A DNA stretch of 32,000 bases from Opitutales bacterium (lineage in GTDB: Bacteria > Verrucomicrobiota > Verrucomicrobiia > Opitutales > Coraliomargaritaceae). Below, piece after piece: positions 267 to 16,562 of this stretch; the stretch's first letter is position 1, and the number at the start of each line of letters is the position of its first letter. A program made the translations under genes and the position numbers. The stretch is taken from assembly GCA_049606355.1 (NCBI GenBank), contig JBMYVL010000005.1, forward strand, positions 1 through 32,000, written 5' to 3'. The notes beneath the pieces are model-generated. The model was not told the origin of the DNA. It ran no database searches and worked only from the letters and a program-made list of their open reading frames with translations.

Positions 267-342
<76 letters not shown>

Positions 343-3084: not shown

Positions 3085-5631
3085 TTAGGCGTCTGCTGGC
3101 GCAGCCTCCCACTCGTACTTCTTAGGCGTGAGCTCGCGCTCATCCACGTGCTTGCGATCCCCCTTGTGCCACCAGAAGAAGACCGGGCTGGCGATAAAGA
3201 TGGAGGAGAAGGTACCGGTTAAAATACCGATGATAAAGACGAAGGAGAAATCGGTGATCACACCGGAGCCGAAGATGTACAGCGAGCAGGCCGCCAGCAA
3301 AGTGGTGATACTCGTCAATAAGGAGCGCGAGAAGACGCGATTGATCGCCAAATTAATGATCGAGCGCAGACCTGCGCCCGGGTTGAGCTCCAACTCTTCG
3401 CGAATGCGGTCGAACACAACGATGGTATCATTAATCGAGTAACCGACGATCATCAGAATCGCGGCCAACATCGGCGCGGTGAATTGACCACTGACAAAGA
3501 TGTCGAGCGCGCCGCAAATCACAAAGACGCCGACGGTCATGAAGACGTCGTGGATCGTAGCGATCACCGCACCGACCCCGTAGCCGACTTCAAAGCGCAG
3601 CGCCACGTACAGGAGGATACCACCGAGCGCAGCGATCACGGACCACATCGCATTCCATTGGATGCTGCTGGAAACCGCCGCACCGATCTGGGTGACGGCA
3701 ATTTCTTCAAGCCCTGCCTGTGGGTAGGCTTGCTGAAGGCCTGCCAGCACCGCGCGACTTTGATCAAAGCGTGTTTGTAGCTTCAGTACCTCACGGTCCT
3801 CACCGATCAGGGTTTGGTAAACCGGGTTGACTTCGCCCAGACCCAACTGCGCGGCCGCAGCACTCAAGGCACCCCCTTCAATCTTTTCCTCAAAGGCGAC
3901 TGTCATTTCATCCCCACCGGTGAAATCGATCCCCATGATGTTCTCGTGATGCAGGGCAATGCTGACGACGCCGGCAGCGACCAGCGACCACGAGGCAATG
4001 AAGGCGGGTTTGCGGAATTTGAAGAAATCGATCTTCATTTCACCCAGCAAGCTGAGCCCCAAGACCTTTTTGACCCCGGCACGGTGTACCAGGAAATCCA
4101 CCATAAAGCGGGTGACGACCAGCGCACAAAAGATGGAGGCGCAGATACCAATCGCGAGGGTGTAACCGAAGCCCTTTACCGGCCCGGTGCCCAACCAGAT
4201 CAAAATACACGCAGTGATCAGCGTGGTGACGTTGGCATCCACAATTGTGGAGGTTACTTTCTGGAAGGCATTCACCGTCGCAGTGGACAGGCTTTTGCCC
4301 AGTTTGAGCTCCTCGCGGAGGCGCTCAAAGATGAGGATATTGGCATCCACCCCCATGCCGAGGGTGAGCACCAGCGCGGCGACGCCGGGCAGCGTAAGGG
4401 TGGCGCCCAAGCTGGCGAGGACACCCAATACGATAATGACATTGATGATCGCAGACGCCACGGCAACCGCACCACCGATGAAGTAGTACAGGACCATAAA
4501 CGCGACCACGAAGATCGCGCCCCACTTCACTGCGTTGAGTGAACTATCGCGGGCGCCGGCAGCCATGGATGGGCCGACTTCGTACATCTCGTCGACGCGT
4601 AATTCCACGGCGAGAGGATTGTTGAGTACATTCGCCAGATCAAAGGCTTCCCGCTGTGAGTAATTACCGGTGATTTGTGCATTTTTGGAAAGCACCCCCT
4701 GTACCGTCGGTGCGGAGTACAGCTTGCCGTCGAGCACGATCGCCAGCGGCTGGCCGAGCAATTTCTCCGTCACGGTGCGGAAAACTTTCGCCCCGTCTGC
4801 GGTCATGACCAAATTCACCTGAAAGCCACCGGTCGGTGTCTGCGAGGCAAAGGCATCTTCGACGATCTCGCCGGTGGCCTCGGGAATGCGCTTCACAAAC
4901 ATGCGGCGCTCGTACACCTCGCCATTCGAGCGGTCTTCGATCTCTTCAGCGAGTACTTCGTACCCAACCGGGTATTGATTGGTGGGCGTGCGATCCGGCT
5001 CCAGCGAGGGGTGCACGGTACGGAATTCCAAGCGCGCCGGTTTCTTGATAATGTCGATGATTTCCGGGTTCTCTTTGGTCGATGCGCCCGGCATCTGAAT
5101 CTCGATGGCATTCTCGCCGCGCGGACGAATGATCGGCTCGGCCACGCCGGAACCATCCAAACGTTCGCCCATAATGGTAATCGCGTCTTCCAGTTGTTCG
5201 GCTTGCTCGTAGGCGCTCATCCCGACCTGCGCAGACGCATCCATCTTCATGGTGACCCCGACGCCGCCCTTGAGGTCCAGCCCCAGACGCAGCTGGCTCT
5301 GTGCACGGCTCAAGAGGTATTTGAGCAGGATGTTGTTCCGCTTGTTGCGGTTGGCGATATCCTTGACCTGTATCTCCGGGAAGAAGGTCGCGTAATCGAT
5401 CTCCTCTTCGACGCCCAGCTCGCGCAGCGCAGTGAACAAGGTCTTCGACTCCTTGTTGGCAACACGCGCTTGAGCGCGATCGAGAATCGCATTGAAGGTG
5501 TCGACCTCGGCGGTCGCCTGCTCCGCGATGTATTGCTCAAAGGGACGATCCTGCAAGGGGGTGATGCTGATGATACACCACCAAATAATCAGGGCAGTGA
5601 GGATGAATTTCCAAAGGATGTTACCGGACAT
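3085..5631 (-). CDS. secDF: Protein translocase subunit SecDF (fused SecD-SecF)
   Basis: The 848-aa ORF has an N-terminal TM helix, a large periplasmic domain and two blocks of 6 TM helices. SecD/SecF signatures are present (LGLDLKGG, GMGVDANILIFERLREE, GYSINDTIVVFDRIREE). It lies immediately downstream of yajC. Confidence 0.92.
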   Translation of the reverse strand: MSGNILWKFILTALIIWWCIISITPLQDRPFEQYIAEQATAEVDTFNAILDRAQARVANKESKTLFTALRELGVEEEIDYATFFPEIQVKDIANRNKRNNILLKYLLSRAQSQLRLGLDLKGGVGVTMKMDASAQVGMSAYEQAEQLEDAITIMGERLDGSGVAEPIIRPRGENAIEIQMPGASTKENPEIIDIIKKPARLEFRTVHPSLEPDRTPTNQYPVGYEVLAEEIEDRSNGEVYERRMFVKRIPEATGEIVEDAFASQTPTGGFQVNLVMTADGAKVFRTVTEKLLGQPLAIVLDGKLYSAPTVQGVLSKNAQITGNYSQREAFDLANVLNNPLAVELRVDEMYEVGPSMAAGARDSSLNAVKWGAIFVVAFMVLYYFIGGAVAVASAIINVIIVLGVLASLGATLTLPGVAALVLTLGMGVDANILIFERLREELKLGKSLSTATVNAFQKVTSTIVDANVTTLITACILIWLGTGPVKGFGYTLAIGICASIFCALVVTRFMVDFLVHRAGVKKVLGLSLLGEMKIDFFKFRKPAFIASWSLVAAGVVSIALHHENIMGIDFTGGDEMTVAFEEKIEGGALSAAAAQLGLGEVNPVYQTLIGEDREVLKLQTRFDQSRAVLAGLQQAYPQAGLEEIAVTQIGAAVSSSIQWNAMWSVIAALGGILLYVALRFEVGYGVGAVIATIHDVFMTVGVFVICGALDIFVSGQFTAPMLAAILMIVGYSINDTIVVFDRIREELELNPGAGLRSIINLAINRVFSRSLLTSITTLLAACSLYIFGSGVITDFSFVFIIGILTGTFSSIFIASPVFFWWHKGDRKHVDERELTPKKYEWEAAPADA

Positions 5632-12858: not shown

Positions 12859-13911
12859 CTACTCGGCTGCATCGGAGGCGCTGTCGCGTGCTGCGGTCGT
12901 TTCTGCGACCTCAATCGTTGGCGCCTGCGCCGGACGGGGGCGCGTCTTTACGGAAAACTCCAGCTCCGCATCAGCCCGCTTGATCTTGATGCTGGTAAAC
13001 TGATTCGCGCGGGTAAAAAAGACCGCGGTTGGGACATCTGCGACCGTATGAATCGGGCGATCACCGATGGAGACCAAATGATCGCCTTCGCGCAAGCCGG
13101 CCTGCTTGGCGGGCGCCGAATCGACTAATTTTGTCAGGTAAACCGAATTCGTGTTATCCGCATTCAACTTAGCTGCGACTTCGAAGCCCATCCAACTGTG
13201 AATAATCCGACCCGAGAACAGCAAATCATCGCGCACCCGCGCCAATGCATCGGGTGGCAGGCAGTAGGACCCGCCCAAATCAGGAATCGAAGCCACCGTC
13301 ATTCCAATGAAGCGACCATTCACATCCAAGACCGGGCAACCACCACGACCTGCATCCACATCGAGTGAAGTACGTAGATAAGTCGTCGGAAATACCTTAT
13401 TGCCGAGCTTCTTGTCCCGACCGGTAATGATACCCATCGAAGGCGATGCCTCAAAATCCAGCGGACAGGAAATGGCTACCGCAATCGATCCCAGTTCCGG
13501 GGATGGCACGCTCGTATCAATCGGAATGATGGAAAAGTCTTCCGGCAATTCGATCACCCGCAGCACCGATACATTTGTTAGACGGTCATGACCAACCGCT
13601 TCCGCAGCATACGGACGCCCCTGGTACTCGACCCAGACACGGTCCGCCCCGGCTGCGCGGCTGGCACTGACGAGCACATGGCCCTCTTGGCTGACGAAAA
13701 ATCCCGAACCCACGCGCAACATTACCTGCGGCTTGCCATCGGCATTGTCCGGACCGCGGTAGGCAGCCTTCACGCGTACAATCGCATCCTTATTCTCCTC
13801 AAAAACTTCAACCAGACGCTGCTGTAAGGCCAGTGCATCGGCCGAACTGGCCGCCACAGGCACAGCGACCAGAGCCAAGAGGGAAAAAATCCAACCACTG
13901 CGGATGCTCAT
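12859..13911 (-). CDS. HtrA/DegS-like trypsin-fold protein with C-terminal PDZ domain; catalytic triad apparently absent
   Basis: It has a signal peptide, a GSGFFVS... trypsin-fold core and a PDZ-like segment (AKQAGLREGDHLVSIGDRPI). By hand alignment to DegP/DegS the catalytic positions read S (for His), N (for Asp) and G (for Ser). The first two lie in GHVLVSASRA and TNVSVL. The third is in GRGGCP, which replaces GNSGGP. I prefer the ATG at 13911 over the TTG at 13923. Confidence 0.75.
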   Translation of the reverse strand: MSIRSGWIFSLLALVAVPVAASSADALALQQRLVEVFEENKDAIVRVKAAYRGPDNADGKPQVMLRVGSGFFVSQEGHVLVSASRAAGADRVWVEYQGRPYAAEAVGHDRLTNVSVLRVIELPEDFSIIPIDTSVPSPELGSIAVAISCPLDFEASPSMGIITGRDKKLGNKVFPTTYLRTSLDVDAGRGGCPVLDVNGRFIGMTVASIPDLGGSYCLPPDALARVRDDLLFSGRIIHSWMGFEVAAKLNADNTNSVYLTKLVDSAPAKQAGLREGDHLVSIGDRPIHTVADVPTAVFFTRANQFTSIKIKRADAELEFSVKTRPRPAQAPTIEVAETTAARDSASDAAE

Positions 13912-13926
13912 CGCGCTACGCAAACC

Positions 13927-14484
13927 CTAGAAAACCAGGCTAGCCATACCCGTCTGCCCGAAGGCCGCCCGAGCTAAAGCAGAGTCGGCGGAGTAATCGG
14001 CCGTATCGTTGACGGCTACTTGAATCACATCCATGCCAAAATCACGCTCATAGCCTGCATCTTGCGCCACGCTCAGTGCATCGCTCACAAAAATCGCATC
14101 AATCTGATAATCGGCAGCATCGGTAACCTCCTGAGGTAAATCTGCGAGCGTTAAAGCGTCCTGCTGTGCTGCAGATGCAAGCACCGTGCCTGCCGCGCGG
14201 TCGGAGAACTGGAGTGTGCCCAACAGCGCCGGCCGAACCGCCAACACGGTCGCCACCAGAGCCGCTGTTGCCAGCGCAGTCGCCTGAGGCAGTCGCCCAC
14301 TGCAGCCCCGCCACAGCTGTAAATACCAGGGCTCTTTCTTAACCAGCGTCTGTAGCATGCGCTGATGCAATTCACGATCGAACTGATCCCAAAAAGCGCT
14401 GTCCGGCTTTTCCGAGCGCTTGAGGCGCAGCAGATCTTCCACATTGATTTCGTTCGGGTCCGCTGGATTCGACTTCGGCATCAT
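13927..14484 (-). CDS. Putative membrane-anchored anti-sigma factor
   Basis: It lies 32 nt downstream of the ECF sigma gene. It has a short cytoplasmic N-terminal region, one TM helix (ATALATAALVATVLAV) and an extracytoplasmic C-terminal region. No HxxxCxxC zinc motif is present. The call rests on position and topology. Confidence 0.5.
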   Translation of the reverse strand: MMPKSNPADPNEINVEDLLRLKRSEKPDSAFWDQFDRELHQRMLQTLVKKEPWYLQLWRGCSGRLPQATALATAALVATVLAVRPALLGTLQFSDRAAGTVLASAAQQDALTLADLPQEVTDAADYQIDAIFVSDALSVAQDAGYERDFGMDVIQVAVNDTADYSADSALARAAFGQTGMASLVF

Positions 14485-14516: not shown

Positions 14517-15149
14517 CTAGCGGAGATAGTCCTTAAGTTCCGCTTGCAGTTGTTGTTTCGCGTAGTGGAGTCGAGAGCGCACCGTACCCACGGAAGTTTG
14601 GGTAATTTCGGCGATTTCGGCATGCTCAAGCCCTTCGATTTCATGTAAAATAACGACTGTGCGATGTTTAAGAGACAGCTTTTGTAAAGATTCGTTCAAT
14701 TTTTCCTGCAATTCTCGGACCAATACGCCTTTTTCAGTCCGATTTTTTGCCGTCAAACGCTCAATGATCTCAGCAGTCGCCACTTCTTCATTGATGGTCT
14801 CGTAATTAATAAAGCGCCGACGACTGTTCTTTTTCAGAAAGCTCATCGTCGTGTTGATGCCAATGCGATACAACCAGGTATAGAAAGCTGATTTGCCACG
14901 GAAACGCCCGATCGCCTGAAAGGCCTTAATGAAGGTCTCCTGCGTCAGATCGGAGGCATCTTCGCGGTTGCCGGTCATATTATACAGCACCGAAAAAATG
15001 TGCTCGCGGTACTTTTGCACCAGGGCATCAAACGCACCCACTTGACCGGCCTGAACTTTTTGAACAACGATCCAATCCTTGTCGCGTTCGGACAAAGGTG
15101 CGTCCTTCGCCGGCGCGAAGGCTTCGGAAACTGAGCTGGTTGTTGCCAT
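14517..15149 (-). CDS. RNA polymerase ECF-type sigma-70 factor
   Basis: Region 2 (YREHIFSVLYNMTGNREDASDLTQETFIKAF, FYTWLYRIGIN) and region 4 (EGLEHAEIAEITQTSVGTVRSRLHYAK) are present, with no region 3. The ATG at 15149 is preceded by AGGGG; the longest ORF uses a TTG at 15167. Confidence 0.88.
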   Translation of the reverse strand: MATTSSVSEAFAPAKDAPLSERDKDWIVVQKVQAGQVGAFDALVQKYREHIFSVLYNMTGNREDASDLTQETFIKAFQAIGRFRGKSAFYTWLYRIGINTTMSFLKKNSRRRFINYETINEEVATAEIIERLTAKNRTEKGVLVRELQEKLNESLQKLSLKHRTVVILHEIEGLEHAEIAEITQTSVGTVRSRLHYAKQQLQAELKDYLR

Positions 15150-15291
15150 TAAAACACCCCTATACAAGCACTTCTGACCTTAATTGCAAGAGCGCAGAAC
15201 AGGCGATGCGGCGCGGCCGAACGACTGAAAAATGCCGCAAACCCCTCGCAGATGGGCTCAAGCACAGCGGCTCAATCCCTCAGAATCCCAG

Positions 15292-15777
15292 CTAAAGAAT
15301 GGGCGCGGCTAACTTCCACCGCAATTCACAGGGCCCGAACTGCCCCAAATTCGGAATGGGGCGCCAGTCCAAACAAATGAGCCCGCAGGTGCCTAAATGA
15401 ATACGCGTGCGGTAACGCTCACCGCTCAGCAGTAGCGACGCCAACAACTCTAAGTTCGGATTATGCCCGATGAGCACCACATCGCGATCCAAACCTGCCA
15501 AATCTGCCAGCAAGGGCTCCGGGTCGGCCTCGGGCACCAGTGCCGCACACACCTGCGTCGATTCAATGCTGCCGCCCCAAGCCTCCAATAAGCCCTCCAT
15601 CGTCTCTCGGGTACGTTGCAGCGGGCTGCGCCAGATGTGGGCGGGAGTGAATTCCTCCTTATCTCGCAAAAAGTGGCCCAAGCGCCGGACCTGCTGTTGA
15701 CCTGCAGTCGAGAGCGCTCGGTCGGCGTCGGGGAACCCAGGCACCGCTTTGGCATGGCGCAGTAAATAAACTCGCAT
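15292..15777 (-). CDS. sixA: Histidine phosphatase family protein, SixA-like phosphohistidine phosphatase
   Basis: The ATG at 15777 gives MRVYLLRHAKA (RHG-type motif). SPLQRTRET and a downstream GHNP motif are also present. Length is about 161 aa. Confidence 0.7.
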   Translation of the reverse strand: MRVYLLRHAKAVPGFPDADRALSTAGQQQVRRLGHFLRDKEEFTPAHIWRSPLQRTRETMEGLLEAWGGSIESTQVCAALVPEADPEPLLADLAGLDRDVVLIGHNPNLELLASLLLSGERYRTRIHLGTCGLICLDWRPIPNLGQFGPCELRWKLAAPIL

Positions 15778-15825
15778 GCTTGAAGTGAAGCAAGCGGACG
15801 GCCCAAGCTCGACATAAAAACCCAC

Positions 15826-15860
15826 AAAAAACGCCGCTCACACGAGGCGAGCGACGCTTC
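15826..15860 (-). terminator. Intrinsic terminator of candidate sRNA copy A
   Basis: The minus strand reads GAAGCGUCGCUC-GCCUCGUGU-GAGCGGCG followed by UUUUUU. The stem is 8-9 bp including one G-U pair, and the U6 tail corresponds to plus 15826-15831. Confidence 0.65.
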
Positions 15861-15898
15861 TTAACAAACAACAAACTAACGGATACAAACTAGATTGT
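15826..15898 (-). ncRNA. Candidate small RNA, copy A (about 73 nt, 5' end estimated)
   Basis: It is bounded by the ECF-like promoter motif and the terminator. It has no ATG-initiated ORF. It contains AGUUUGUUGUUUGUU just 5' of the terminator hairpin. It is a diverged paralog of copy B, 204 nt upstream. Confidence 0.4.
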
Positions 15899-15904
15899 AA
15901 TAAC

Positions 15905-15931
15905 TTAGACGGAGGAAGCGGACAGACGTTC
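15905..15931 (-). promoter_or_regulatory. ECF-sigma-type promoter-like motif, copy A
   Basis: The minus strand reads TTCGAACGT-ctgtccgcttcctc-CGTCTAAGT. GAAC corresponds to plus 15928-15931, the spacer is 16 nt, and CGTCTA corresponds to plus 15906-15911. An A-rich tract lies upstream. Confidence 0.45.
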
Positions 15932-16029
15932 GAACTATTTTTTCATAAACATTATTTTTACAATTCGGCCGGCCGCCCCTGCCGCCCGACTGCCACACCG
16001 GTCGTACGGGTCGCAGGTAGGCACTTGGC

Positions 16030-16064
16030 AAAAAAAGAAGCGCCACTCCCGAGAGCGACGCTTC
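16030..16064 (-). terminator. Intrinsic terminator of candidate sRNA copy B
   Basis: The minus strand reads GAAGCGUCGCUC-UCGG-GAGUGGCGCUUC followed by UUUUUUU. The 12-bp stem includes G-U pairs, with a tetraloop and a U7 tail. Confidence 0.75.
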
Positions 16065-16103
16065 AAAACAACAAACTTTGCGTATACTAATGAATAATGA
16101 GTA
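16030..16103 (-). ncRNA. Candidate small RNA, copy B (about 74 nt, 5' end estimated)
   Basis: It has the same architecture as copy A. It shares GUAU(C/A)CG, AGUUUGUUGUUU and the GAAGCGUCGCUC 5' terminator arm. No ATG is present. Confidence 0.4.
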
Positions 16104-16108
16104 CAGAC

Positions 16109-16135
16109 ATAGACGGAGAACTGGGCCTAACGTTC
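16109..16135 (-). promoter_or_regulatory. ECF-sigma-type promoter-like motif, copy B
   Basis: The minus strand reads TTTGAACGT-taggcccagttctc-CGTCTATGT. GAAC corresponds to plus 16132-16135, the spacer is 16 nt, and CGTCTA corresponds to plus 16110-16115. An A-rich tract lies upstream. Confidence 0.45.
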
Positions 16136-16196
16136 AAAAATTCTGCACTTTTTTTGACCTTTTTTGAGTGCCACGCCGCCACGCTTCTGCAAGCCC

Positions 16197-16562
16197 TTAT
16201 AAATCAGTATACTTATCACTTCGGCCCTTCGCCTTCGCCACCGGATATTTTTCCGCATTGCGCTGCATTTTCGCCTCAATAATCGAGCTCAGGTCCATCC
16301 CGGACACATTCGCAAATTGGATCGCGAAAATCAGAATGTCGGCCAACTCTTCGGCAACCTCCGCTCGAAGGGCCGGATCTTGGACATCGGCACGCGATTG
16401 CTCGGCGGATTGCCAAAGGAAGTGCTCCATGAGTTCGGCCGCCTCCGCCGCAATCGCCATCGATAAATTCTTCGGGGAGTGAAACTGCTCCCAGTCGCGC
16501 TCACGCGCAAACGCCAGAACCTTTGCTTTGATGGCCTGTAAATCTGTGTGGTGGTCGCCCAT
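16197..16562 (-). CDS. MazG-like nucleotide pyrophosphohydrolase (small, all-alpha)
   Basis: The ATG at 16562 gives MGDHHTDLQAIKAKVLAFARERDWEQFHSPKNL..AAEAAELMEHF..EELADILIF, i.e. the EExxE/ExxD MazG signatures. The upstream part of the longest ORF overlaps mgtE and is discounted. Confidence 0.7.
   Translation of the reverse strand: MGDHHTDLQAIKAKVLAFARERDWEQFHSPKNLSMAIAAEAAELMEHFLWQSAEQSRADVQDPALRAEVAEELADILIFAIQFANVSGMDLSSIIEAKMQRNAEKYPVAKAKGRSDKYTDL

What the first reader, a model, noticed from the sequence alone, without database searches (positions are those of the whole stretch)
15826..16136. Tandem pair of candidate sRNAs, each with an ECF-sigma-type promoter motif and a strong terminator, next to an ECF sigma/anti-sigma operon
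Seen directly: the gap between sixA and the mazG-like gene is about 420 nt and visibly AT-rich, while most other gaps in this window are under 150 nt. It contains two diverged copies, 204 nt apart, of the same unit on the minus strand. Each unit starts with an A-rich tract. Next comes (T/C)GAACGT, then a 16-nt spacer of unrelated sequence measured GAAC to CGTC, then CGTCTA(A/T)GT. A body of about 45 nt follows with no ATG, ending in the shared AGUUUGUUGUUU tract. The unit closes with a hairpin plus U6-U7 tail whose 5' arm GAAGCGUCGCUC is shared. The loop and 3' arm differ between the copies while pairing is preserved. Boxes conserved at fixed spacing across a diverged spacer is a promoter signature. 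Established knowledge: ECF sigma promoters characteristically carry AAC in the -35 and CGT in the -10 about 16-17 nt apart, as in Bacillus SigW TGAAAC-N16-CGTATA. Also established: the E. coli RpoE regulon includes the sRNAs MicA, RybB and MicL. Inference: these are two paralogous sRNAs of about 75 nt transcribed by the ECF sigma encoded about 650 nt downstream on the same strand. That would make them the non-coding arm of an envelope-stress regulon in a lineage where I know of no such sRNAs. The shared G/U-rich tract could be a seed or a chaperone-binding site.
Basis: partly seen in the sequence, partly recalled or inferred. Interest (0 to 1): 0.78.

Follow-up and report, generated by a model that had tools for sequence, protein, structure and literature searches.

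The report
Stress-sigma-driven small RNA pair in Verrucomicrobia
Two neighbouring ~75-nt non-coding RNA genes belong to a previously undescribed small-RNA family of marine Verrucomicrobia (Coraliomargarita/Lentimonas group), and their strictly conserved promoter is the type read by envelope-stress (RpoE-like) sigma factors, suggesting these bacteria have a stress-controlled small-RNA arm like E. coli's.

Summary
Two diverged units lie 204 nt apart on the minus strand. Each has an A/T tract, GAACGT-N13-CCGTCTA, a roughly 37-nt unstructured body ending in AGUUUGUUGUUU, and a strong hairpin with a U-run.

Homologous units occur in 13 lineages of Opitutales, including cultured Lentimonas, Coraliomargarita sinensis and C. 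parva. I found about 22 units, mostly as tandem pairs, always just 3' of a mazG-like gene. Across 17 distinct units the promoter boxes TTTTTGAACGY-N14-CGTCTAT are almost invariant at fixed spacing, while the spacer is unconserved. The GU-rich tract is nearly invariant. The terminator stem covaries (9 of 14 pairs, 0/500 shuffles). Rfam has no match.

Adjacency to the ECF sigma is not conserved; it holds only in this clade. An independent link exists, however. The same GAAC-N17-GTCT motif sits inside the sigma gene, where synonymous codons are frozen across 82 orthologues, like E. coli rseA P3. The sigma is RpoE/AlgU-like and is followed by a putative anti-sigma gene and an HtrA protease gene.

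Best reading: ECF-dependent trans-acting sRNAs, a new member of a known kind. Expression, sigma dependence, chaperone and targets remain untested.

The parts
16138..16166 (-). Unit A upstream A-tract followed by a T5 run (UP-element-like region).
   Evidence: Read directly. An A-tract near -50 and a T-run abutting the -35 box are conserved in 17 units.
16130..16137 (-). Unit A -35 box, TTGAACGT.
   Evidence: Exact motif hit. GAAC is invariant and the following G is present in 16 of 17 aligned units.
16109..16115 (-). Unit A -10 box, CGTCTAT.
   Evidence: The distance to the -35 box is fixed (13 nt between GAACGY and NCGTCTA) in all units.
16029..16102 (-). Predicted sRNA A, about 73 nt. The 5' end is inferred to lie 6-9 nt after the -10 box and is not mapped.
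   Evidence: Covariance-model hits of 90.7 bits (R1) and 71.9 bits (R2). The fold is an unstructured 5' part plus a terminator.
16066..16077 (-). Conserved GU-rich tract AGUUUGUUGUUU of sRNA A, a candidate seed or chaperone site.
   Evidence: GTTTGTTGTTT is present in 16 of 17 distinct units; the L136 unit has GTTTGTAGTTTGTT instead.
16030..16064 (-). Unit A intrinsic terminator: a 12-bp GC-rich hairpin plus U7.
   Evidence: Family-wide covariation is shown.
15935..15962 (-). Unit B upstream A/T-rich tract.
15926..15933 (-). Unit B -35 box, TCGAACGT.
15905..15911 (-). Unit B -10 box, CGTCTAA.
15817..15899 (-). Predicted sRNA B, about 75-83 nt. The 5' end is inferred. It has a small 5' hairpin (UACAA/UUGUA), a GU tract and a terminator.
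   Evidence: Covariance-model hits of 44.3 bits (R1) and 60.1 bits (R2).
15863..15877 (-). GU-rich tract AGUUUGUUGUUUGUU of sRNA B.
15816..15863 (-). Unit B intrinsic terminator: a 17-bp hairpin with an interrupted U-run (UUUUUUGUGGGUUUUU).
16197..16562 (-). mazG-like nucleotide pyrophosphohydrolase gene. This is the conserved upstream neighbour and the synteny anchor of the sRNA locus.
   Evidence: Pfam PF12643. Orthologues are followed by the units in every mazG locus examined.
15292..15777 (-). sixA-like phosphohistidine phosphatase gene. Its start codon lies only about 38 nt after the unit B terminator.
   Evidence: TIGR00249 at 2.4e-16, below the family cut-off. The same tight spacing is seen in L134, L135, L136, L141 and L142.
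14517..15149 (-). RpoE/AlgU-like ECF sigma factor gene.
   Evidence: Pfam. PDB matches: AlgU 6in7 at 2.9e-34 and E. coli sigma-E 1or7 at 9.4e-29. The best NCBIfam model is TIGR02939 RpoE, below its cut-off.
14673..14708 (-). Promoter-like motif inside the sigma coding sequence: CAGGAAAAATTGAACGA-N13-CTGTCT. It has the same GAAC-N17-GTCT spacing as the sRNA promoters and is predicted to drive the anti-sigma and htrA genes.
   Evidence: Synonymous-codon entropy collapses at codons 148-152 and 158-159 in 82 orthologues. The motif also appears.
15159..15189 (-). Sigma-70-like promoter of the sigma gene (TTGCAA-N17-TGTATA).
   Evidence: TTGCA(A/T) followed by a T-rich -10 is conserved upstream of the sigma gene in most loci.
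13927..14484 (-). Candidate anti-sigma factor: 185 aa, one hydrophobic segment, no family match.
   Evidence: A 186-195-aa gene with no Pfam hit follows the sigma gene in relatives.
12859..13923 (-). HtrA/DegP-like serine protease gene (Trypsin_2 + PDZ). It is the third gene of the conserved sigma module.
   Evidence: The gene order is conserved.

Best explanation
The two units are paralogous genes for small non-coding RNAs. They belong to an undescribed sRNA family of the Coraliomargarita/Lentimonas group (Opitutales, Verrucomicrobiota).

Proposed mechanism:
1. Each gene is transcribed from its own ECF-type promoter, A/T tract-TTGAACGY-N14-CGTCTAT. The most likely sigma is the RpoE/AlgU-like ECF sigma, which in this genome happens to lie next door.
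2. Each transcript ends at a strong intrinsic terminator and is about 61-79 nt long.
3. The RNA has a variable 5' part, often a short hairpin. This is followed by an invariant single-stranded GU-rich tract, GUUUGUUGUUU(GUU), directly in front of the terminator hairpin and U-tail.
4. By analogy with RybB, MicA and MicL, the sigma is released from its membrane anti-sigma on envelope stress and switches on the RNAs. The GU tract then pairs with CA-rich stretches (AAACAACAAAC-like) of target mRNAs and/or docks an RNA chaperone, lowering synthesis of envelope proteins.
5. The same sigma also fires a promoter inside its own gene to make more anti-sigma and HtrA, as a feedback loop.
6. Read-through of the last terminator probably supplies transcription of sixA.

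Shown here: the sequence anatomy, conservation, covariation, promoter type, sigma type, and the internal motif under selection.

Inferred: transcription itself, which sigma is responsible, trans-action, targets, and the stress signal.
For: 1. Homologous units occur in 13 lineages, always immediately 3' of the mazG-like gene and on the same strand. About 22 units were found, mostly tandem pairs.
2. Promoter logo from 17 distinct units: GAAC is invariant and CGTCT nearly so, the spacing is fixed, the spacer is unconserved, and there is an upstream A-tract and T-run.
3. Terminator helix: 95.8% of cells are paired and 9 of 14 pairs carry compensatory changes. No shuffle out of 500 reached the observed values, and sliding the 3' partners collapses pairing to 40-65%.
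4. All the RNAs fold as an open 5' part plus a terminator. The GU tract is nearly invariant while the rest of the body diverges.
5. The downstream gene varies: sixA on the same strand, or glutaredoxin or HPr on the opposite strand. The units are therefore not a leader of one particular gene.
6. The sigma is RpoE/AlgU-like. SAFYTWLYRI..NT and VGTVRSR are identical to E. coli sigma-E and AlgU. The sigma / anti-sigma candidate / HtrA order is conserved.
7. Published sigma-E boxes are -35 GGAACTT(TT) and -10 GTC(AAA). rybB and micA carry them (PMC1804206, PMC6648896).
8. TTGAACGA-N13-YTGTCT lies inside the sigma gene with frozen synonymous codons in 82 orthologues: TTG 0.93, AAC 0.96, TCT 0.93, against 0.3-0.7 elsewhere in the gene. 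This parallels E. coli rseA P3, a sigma-E-dependent promoter inside rpoE (PMC8595263).
9. In about 0.92 Mb of related loci, the strict motif is found only at the sRNA units.
Against: - There is no expression data of any kind, so the 5' ends are guesses.
- Adjacency to the sigma gene is confined to this clade (window/L089, L002, L003, L087). Elsewhere the two loci are separate.
- GAAC/CGTC-type boxes are shared by many ECF groups, and these genomes may encode several ECF sigmas. The cognate sigma is therefore not proven.
- The internal motif has TGTCT(C/A) rather than CGTCTAT, and AAAAAT rather than TTTTT before the -35 box. Constraint at synonymous sites could have another cause.
- No complementary target site (AACAACAAAC) was found in about 0.98 Mb of held sequence, and no translation-initiation region in the window stands out.
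- Whether these bacteria have Hfq or another sRNA chaperone was not determined.
- sixA starts 40-60 nt after the last terminator in six lineages, so part of the function may be cis (a leader or attenuator).
Confidence: 0.6

Rival explanations
1. The units are mainly cis-acting. Each would be a stress-sigma promoter plus a leader carrying a leaky terminator (attenuator). This would control read-through into sixA and, in this clade, onward toward the sigma operon. The short RNA would be a by-product.
For: sixA begins only about 38-60 nt after the last terminator in the window, L134, L135, L136, L141 and L142. That leaves little room for a promoter of its own. Unit B's U-run is interrupted, which suggests a weaker terminator. 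In L002, L003 and L087 the single unit lies about 240 nt upstream of the sigma gene on the same strand.
Against: In the Lentimonas loci (L138/L139), C. sinensis (L140) and L143, the next gene is on the opposite strand, yet the units are fully conserved. The first unit of each tandem pair is followed by another unit, not by a gene. The most conserved RNA segment is a single-stranded tract, not an alternative (antiterminator) pairing. In L145 the last terminator and sixA are about 215 nt apart. The sigma gene has its own conserved promoter.
Confidence: 0.2
2. The RNAs are real sRNAs, but they are transcribed by a different ECF sigma or another alternative sigma. The neighbouring RpoE-like sigma in this window would then be a coincidence of gene order.
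For: Adjacency is not conserved. The sigma gene's upstream promoter is sigma-70-like and lacks the motif. AAC/CGT-type boxes are common to many ECF groups (general knowledge). No other regulon member carrying the motif could be found in the held sequence.
Against: The same bipartite motif with identical spacing lies inside this sigma's gene and is under nucleotide-level selection in 82 orthologues. The sigma keeps the sigma-E/AlgU DNA-reading segments, and the boxes resemble the sigma-E consensus GGAACTT/GTC (PMC6648896). The sigma orthologue is present in the same taxa that carry the sRNAs.
Confidence: 0.15
3. This is not an RNA gene at all. It would be only a duplicated terminator region of the mgtE-mazG operon, with fortuitous promoter-like boxes or a small peptide gene.
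For: The units always follow mazG on the same strand, and no separate mazG terminator is evident, so unit A's hairpin may also end mazG transcripts. The ORF finder lists short ORFs across the region: 15876..16046 and 15659..15874.
Against: The promoter boxes and their spacing are conserved across 17 units while the spacer drifts. That pattern is not expected for a mere terminator. The second unit of each pair has no upstream gene to terminate. The short ORFs lack ATG starts, run through the hairpins, and are not conserved because the inter-unit spacers and stems differ in length.
Confidence: 0.05

Closest known systems
RybB, MicA and MicL: the sigma-E-dependent sRNAs of E. coli and Salmonella (PMC1804206, PMC1851643, PMC4102768)
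   Same: They are small (about 70-80 nt for RybB and MicA) stand-alone RNAs. Their promoters carry the RpoE-type -35 and -10 boxes, which are conserved among relatives. Each has an open targeting region followed by an intrinsic terminator. They are controlled by an RpoE-type sigma whose regulon includes an HtrA/DegP protease.
   Different: There is no sequence or structural homology: Rfam gives no hit at gathering score. The phylum is different (Verrucomicrobiota). The conserved tract lies next to the terminator rather than at the extreme 5' end, as I recall it does in RybB. The genes occur as tandem paralogues anchored to a mazG-like gene. Hfq dependence and OMP targets are unknown here.
E. 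coli rseA P3, a sigma-E-dependent promoter inside the rpoE coding region (PMC8595263)
   Same: A cognate-type promoter is embedded in the sigma gene's coding sequence, about 190 nt upstream of the anti-sigma start codon. The E. coli P3 start site is 228 nt upstream of rseA. In both cases the promoter would give sigma-dependent synthesis of the negative regulator.
   Different: Here it is inferred only from frozen synonymous codons and motif identity. No start site has been mapped. The position within the protein is similar to E. coli's but has not been shown to be homologous. The predicted transcript would also include htrA.
Other ECF-sigma-dependent sRNAs recalled from the literature (not checked here): VrrA and MicV (Vibrio sigma-E), ErsA (Pseudomonas AlgU), GsrN (Caulobacter sigma-T/EcfG)
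   Same: A stress ECF sigma directly drives one or more trans-acting sRNAs as the repressing arm of its regulon.
   Different: All of these are proteobacterial and are unrelated in sequence to the family found here.
Sibling or tandem sRNA genes, for example OmrA/OmrB and the Qrr genes (recalled, not checked here)
   Same: Adjacent paralogues share a promoter type, a seed and a terminator, while the remainder of the RNA diverges.
   Different: Those families have different regulators and different sequences. Here the duplication status also varies by lineage: 1 or 2 copies, with the Lentimonas copies nearly identical to each other.

Membership tests
RpoE-type (ECF) promoter | A -35 box containing GGAAC/GAAC. 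| tested here: met
   TTGAAC is present in 16 of 17 distinct units and GAAC in all 17. The published consensus is GGAACTT (PMC6648896, PMC1804206).
RpoE-type (ECF) promoter | A -10 box containing GTC. | tested here: met
   GTCT is present in all 17 units; the preceding C is present in 16 of 17, the exception being TGTCTAT in L003. The published -10 consensus is GTC / GTCAAA (PMC6648896, PMC1804206).
RpoE-type (ECF) promoter | Fixed spacing between the boxes, with an unconstrained spacer. | tested here: met
   There are 17 nt between GAAC and GTCT in every unit, and spacer information content is close to zero.
RpoE-type (ECF) promoter | Transcription depends on the ECF sigma in vivo or in vitro. 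| not testable with these tools
   There is only indirect support: the same motif lies inside the sigma gene under synonymous-site constraint.
Rfam families RybB, MicA, MicL and any other curated RNA family | A match to the family covariance model at the gathering score. | tested here: not met
   The only gathering-level hit in the window is a tRNA at 269-342. A permissive scan of 15700-16300 gives only sub-threshold hits; the best is ncS54 at 20.3 bits against a gathering score of 43.
Intrinsic (Rho-independent) terminator | A GC-rich hairpin immediately followed by a U-run. | tested here: met
   The helix is supported by covariation in 9 of 14 pairs.
Trans-acting base-pairing sRNA | A conserved, accessible (single-stranded) segment. 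| tested here: met
   GUUUGUUGUUU is nearly invariant and is unpaired in the centroid or MFE structures of most units.
Trans-acting base-pairing sRNA | Identifiable complementary target sites in mRNAs. | tested here: inconclusive
   No AACAACAAAC sites were found in about 0.98 Mb of held loci apart from the genes' own antisense strand and 2-3 scattered hits. Nothing in the window rises above background. Whole genomes could not be scanned.
Trans-acting base-pairing sRNA | Chaperone (Hfq or ProQ) association. | not tested
   The presence of hfq in these genomes was not determined. A literature search gave nothing specific.
Cis-acting leader / attenuator | A constant downstream gene on the same strand. 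| tested here: not met
   The downstream gene is sixA (+) in the window, L134, L135, L136/L137, L141, L142 and L145/L146, and the sigma gene (+) in L002, L003 and L087. It is glutaredoxin (-), HPr (-) or an NHL-repeat gene (-) in three others. The first unit of a pair is followed by the second unit.
RpoE / anti-sigma / HtrA envelope-stress module | An ECF sigma equivalent to RpoE. | tested here: inconclusive
   The best NCBIfam model is TIGR02939 RpoE, but at 157 bits it is below the 236-bit cut-off. The best solved relatives are AlgU and E. coli sigma-E.
RpoE / anti-sigma / HtrA envelope-stress module | A co-transcribed membrane anti-sigma factor. | tested here: inconclusive
   The 185-aa protein has one hydrophobic segment and no Pfam or NCBIfam match. 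The gene order is conserved.

The most novel reading that the evidence does not exclude
The core wiring of the sigma-E envelope-stress circuit would be shared between Proteobacteria and Verrucomicrobiota. That wiring comprises an RpoE-like sigma, a membrane anti-sigma factor, an HtrA protease, a cognate promoter hidden inside the sigma gene, and a repressing arm of sigma-dependent sRNAs. The verrucomicrobial sRNAs would be an independent invention. Their (UUG)n-type seed would target CA-rich, Shine-Dalgarno-poor translation start regions of envelope or porin mRNAs. The tandem paralogues would be maintained for dosage or for target diversification.
Probability: 0.35. Interest if true: 0.72.

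Novelty: new member of a known kind. Interest (0 to 1): 0.58.

Why it matters
I found no described regulatory sRNA in Verrucomicrobiota. The group carrying this family includes isolates from marine samples.

This family offers a clean entry point for experiments. It has a sharply defined promoter, a defined seed, and cultured hosts (Lentimonas, Coraliomargarita sinensis, C. parva).

If the sigma link holds, ECF-sigma-driven sRNA repression of envelope load would not be confined to Proteobacteria. It would also give a ready promoter model, TTGAACGY-N14-CGTCTAT, for mapping the regulon of the most conserved ECF sigma of the Opitutales.

The frozen synonymous codons inside the sigma gene are an independent, testable prediction of an rseA-P3-like internal promoter.

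Tried and rejected
1. Rfam at gathering and at permissive thresholds found no family.
2. nhmmer and two covariance models were run over more than 80 loci centred on sigma orthologues. There are no units near the sigma gene outside the window's clade. The weak hits (L065, L080, L059) are ordinary terminators.
3. A metagenome scan with the RNA-only pattern TACGCNAAGTTTGTTGTTT gave 47 loci, of which only L087 and L089 are real. The rest are chance matches in coding sequence, and the pattern proved too narrow for the family.
4. I looked for the motif upstream of the sigma gene as a sign of autoregulation. It is absent. A conserved TTGCA(A/T)-N17-T-rich sigma-70-like promoter sits there instead.
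5. GGAACC-N16/17-GTCT occurs at the 3' end of the gene upstream of the sigma gene in some Opitutaceae loci. It lies in coding sequence, and AAT/AAC codon variants exist, so I left it as inconclusive.
6. Strict and PWM scans for further regulon promoters in 0.92-0.98 Mb found none outside the sRNA units and the intragenic sigma motif.
7. A target search by seed complement and by duplex energy on the window's translation-initiation regions found nothing above background.
8. The small-peptide reading was rejected. The bodies have no ATG, the candidate ORFs run through hairpins, and they are not conserved.
9. Literature searches for Verrucomicrobia sRNAs, ECF sigmas and Hfq returned nothing specific.
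Full report
**Observation**

On the minus strand, the 419-nt gap between a mazG-like gene (16197..16562) and a sixA-like gene (15292..15777) holds two diverged copies of one unit. The copies are exactly 204 nt apart.

Each unit has the following parts:
- An A-rich tract and a T-run.
- GAACGT-N13-CCGTCTA. There are only two exact hits in the window and none with 1-2 mismatches.
- A body without ATG that ends in AGTTTGTTGTTT. This 12-mer occurs only at these two places.
- A GC-rich hairpin with a T-run. Folding z-scores are -3.7 and -4.2.

**Organism and neighbours**

The genes downstream on the same strand are:
- An ECF sigma (14517..15149).
- A 185-aa protein with one hydrophobic segment and no family match (13927..14484).
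- An HtrA/DegP-like Trypsin_2-PDZ protease (12859..13923).

The closest sigma relatives (75-84% identity) come from Lentimonas, Coraliomargarita and other Opitutales of the Verrucomicrobiota. The best solved relatives are P. aeruginosa AlgU (6in7, 2.9e-34) and E. coli sigma-E (1or7, 9.4e-29). The segments SAFYTWLYRI..NT (region 2) and VGTVRSR (region 4) are identical to those proteins. The best NCBIfam model is RpoE, but below its cut-off. The sigma / unknown protein / HtrA trio is conserved in relatives.

**Is the unit conserved, and where?**

I first fetched 80 genome loci around sigma orthologues. Only L002 and L003 carried the unit. Each had a single copy between mazG and the sigma gene, with no sixA.

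A metagenome scan with an RNA-only 18-mer added one more lineage (L087) and a strain variant of the window (L089). All other hits were chance matches. Covariance models found nothing near the sigma gene in the other loci.

I then followed the other neighbour, the mazG-like gene, into relatives. Every mazG locus examined carries one or two units immediately 3' of mazG on the same strand:
- L134: two units.
- L135: two units.
- L136/L137: one unit.
- Lentimonas isolates L138/L139: two units.
- Coraliomargarita sinensis (L140): one unit.
- C. parva (L141): two units.
- A complete Coraliomargarita MAG (L142): two units.
- L143: two units.
- L145/L146: two units.

In these genomes the sigma operon is elsewhere. 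In Lentimonas sp. CC19, for example, the sigma gene is on contig CACVBN010000024 and the units are on CACVBN010000001.

The locus is therefore anchored to mazG. Adjacency to the sigma gene is a peculiarity of the window's clade. The gene after the units varies: sixA on the same strand, or glutaredoxin, HPr or an NHL-repeat gene on the opposite strand.

**Anatomy across the family**

I aligned 17 distinct units on GAAC without gaps. The logo is A-tract ... TTTTTGAACG(Y)-N14-CGTCTAT. GAAC is invariant and CGTCT nearly so. The spacing is identical in every unit, and the spacer carries essentially no information. This is the signature of a promoter, seen in both paralogues and orthologues.

The predicted RNAs are 61-79 nt long. 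The 26-34 nt after the -10 box diverge strongly and often form a short hairpin of varying sequence. They are followed by a nearly invariant single-stranded GUUUGUUGUUU(GUU) and then a terminator hairpin whose sequence differs between lineages.

On a model-fitted alignment of 17 units, the 14-pair terminator helix is 95.8% paired. Nine of its pairs show changes on both sides. No shuffle out of 500 reached the observed values, and sliding the 3' partners drops pairing to 40-65%. That alignment is fitted to the structure, which favours it somewhat.

Rfam has no matching family.

**Which sigma?**

Published sigma-E boxes are -35 GGAACTT(TT) and -10 GTC(AAA). The rybB and micA promoters carry them (PMC1804206, PMC6648896). 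The boxes found here, TTGAACGY and CGTCTAT, share the GAAC and GTC cores. The neighbouring sigma retains the sigma-E/AlgU DNA-reading segments.

The sigma gene's own upstream region does not carry the motif. It has a conserved TTGCA(A/T)-N17-T-rich promoter of sigma-70 type. Classical autoregulation therefore could not be used as a link.

PWM scanning then turned up a recurrent hit inside the sigma coding sequence: GAAAAATTGAACGA-N13-YTGTCT. It has exactly the GAAC-N17-GTCT spacing of the sRNA promoters.

A codon-level analysis of 82 distinct sigma orthologues (55-84% protein identity) shows that synonymous variation collapses precisely there:

| Codon | Top codon | Fraction |
|---|---|---|
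| Q148 | CAG | 0.91 |
| E149 | GAA | 0.98 |
| K150 | AAA | 0.96 |
| L151 | TTG (six-fold degenerate) | 0.93 |
| N152 | AAC | 0.96 |
| L158 | only YTG | - |
| S159 | TCT (six-fold degenerate) | 0.93 |

The codons between these two blocks, and nearly all others in the gene, have top-codon fractions of 0.3-0.7.

Two blocks frozen at the nucleotide level, at promoter spacing, on the coding strand and about 190 nt upstream of the anti-sigma start, are best explained as an internal cognate promoter for the anti-sigma and htrA genes. The precedent is E. coli rseA P3, a sigma-E-dependent promoter inside rpoE with its start site 228 nt upstream of rseA (PMC8595263).

This ties the motif to this sigma's operon independently of gene adjacency. 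It raises my confidence that the RpoE-like sigma reads the sRNA promoters, but it is not proof.

**Function**

The architecture is an open 5' part, a conserved single-stranded tract, then a terminator with a U-tail. This is the architecture of trans-acting base-pairing sRNAs. The GU tract would pair with AAACAACAAAC-like, CA-rich stretches.

I found no such site in the window or in about 0.98 Mb of related loci, other than the genes' own antisense strands and a few scattered hits. No translation-initiation region in the window stands out in duplex energy. Whole genomes could not be scanned, so targets remain unknown. Whether a chaperone such as Hfq exists in these bacteria was not established.

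The envelope-stress role is inferred from the sigma's similarity to RpoE/AlgU and from its HtrA partner.

**A cis component?**

In six lineages, including the window, sixA starts only about 38-60 nt after the last terminator. There is no room for an obvious promoter. sixA probably depends on read-through from the sRNA or mazG promoters.

The interrupted U-run of unit B fits a leakier terminator. In L002, L003 and L087, read-through could reach the sigma gene.

Even so, the units are kept intact where the next gene is convergent, and the first unit of each pair is followed only by the second unit. A purely cis role is therefore unlikely.

**Comparison and novelty**

In function and layout the closest known systems are the sigma-E-dependent sRNAs RybB, MicA and MicL, together with other ECF-driven sRNAs that I recall from Proteobacteria. 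There is no homology to any of them, and no Rfam family matches, so this is not a member of those families. I classify it as a new family of a known kind.

I found no paper on sRNAs or ECF-dependent sRNAs in Verrucomicrobia. The library searched is incomplete.

**Verdict**

It needs one correction: the locus is anchored to mazG, not to the sigma gene.
- There is one new supporting line: the intragenic cognate-type promoter.
- Confidence that these are independently transcribed sRNA genes is about 0.8.
- Confidence that the promoter is ECF/RpoE-type is about 0.75.
- Confidence that this particular sigma drives them is about 0.6.
- Confidence that they act in trans through the GU tract is about 0.5.
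- Confidence that the targets are envelope proteins is about 0.3.

Noticed in passing
window 14673-14708 (minus), inside the ECF sigma gene; the same position in L001-L086: The promoter-like motif CAGGAAAAATTGAACGA-N13-YTGTCT is embedded in the sigma coding sequence. Synonymous codons are frozen there across 82 orthologues. This is a likely internal promoter for the anti-sigma and htrA genes, analogous to E. coli rseA P3.
   Followed up: yes
window 15159-15189 (minus); upstream of the sigma gene in L001-L033: A conserved TTGCA(A/T)-N17-T-rich sigma-70-like promoter lies 15-25 nt before the sigma start codon, implying a very short leader with no obvious Shine-Dalgarno sequence. In many loci the spacer contains an inverted repeat (GCAATTT...AAATTGC) that could be an operator.
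   Followed up: partly
L069, L075, L076, L078, L080 (also L059, L068), 100-170 nt upstream of the sigma gene: GGAACC-N16/17-GTCT sits at the 3' end of the conserved gene upstream of the sigma gene in Opitutaceae. It could be an autoregulatory promoter overlapping coding sequence, or merely a coding constraint.
   Followed up: partly
window 15777-15816; L134 ~4695-4736; L135 ~4008-4067; L136 ~4537-4597; L141 ~3695-3740; L142 ~3770-3811: sixA starts only 38-60 nt after the last sRNA terminator and has no evident promoter of its own. It probably relies on terminator read-through.
   Followed up: partly
L138/L139 (Lentimonas) compared with L134, L135, L141, L142 and the window: The two tandem copies are nearly identical in Lentimonas but clearly diverged into two body types in other lineages. 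Three lineages have one copy. This suggests repeated duplication, loss or gene conversion, with the promoter and GU tract always retained.
   Followed up: partly
L004 (JBLHPJ010000218.1, labelled Yoonia sp.) and L025 (CAXQRK010000022.1, labelled Polaribacter sp.): These contigs are assigned to an alphaproteobacterial MAG and a Bacteroidota MAG, yet they carry the Opitutales-type sigma at 75-81% identity and its typical upstream region. They are probably mis-binned.
   Followed up: no
window 269-342 (minus): A tRNA gene, the only Rfam gathering-level hit in the window.
   Followed up: no
window 15235-15251 (minus), between sixA and the sigma gene: A terminator-like hairpin (CTGCGAGGGGTTTGCGG followed by CATTTTT) lies after sixA and ahead of the sigma promoter. 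It suggests that sixA and the sigma gene are separate transcription units.
   Followed up: no
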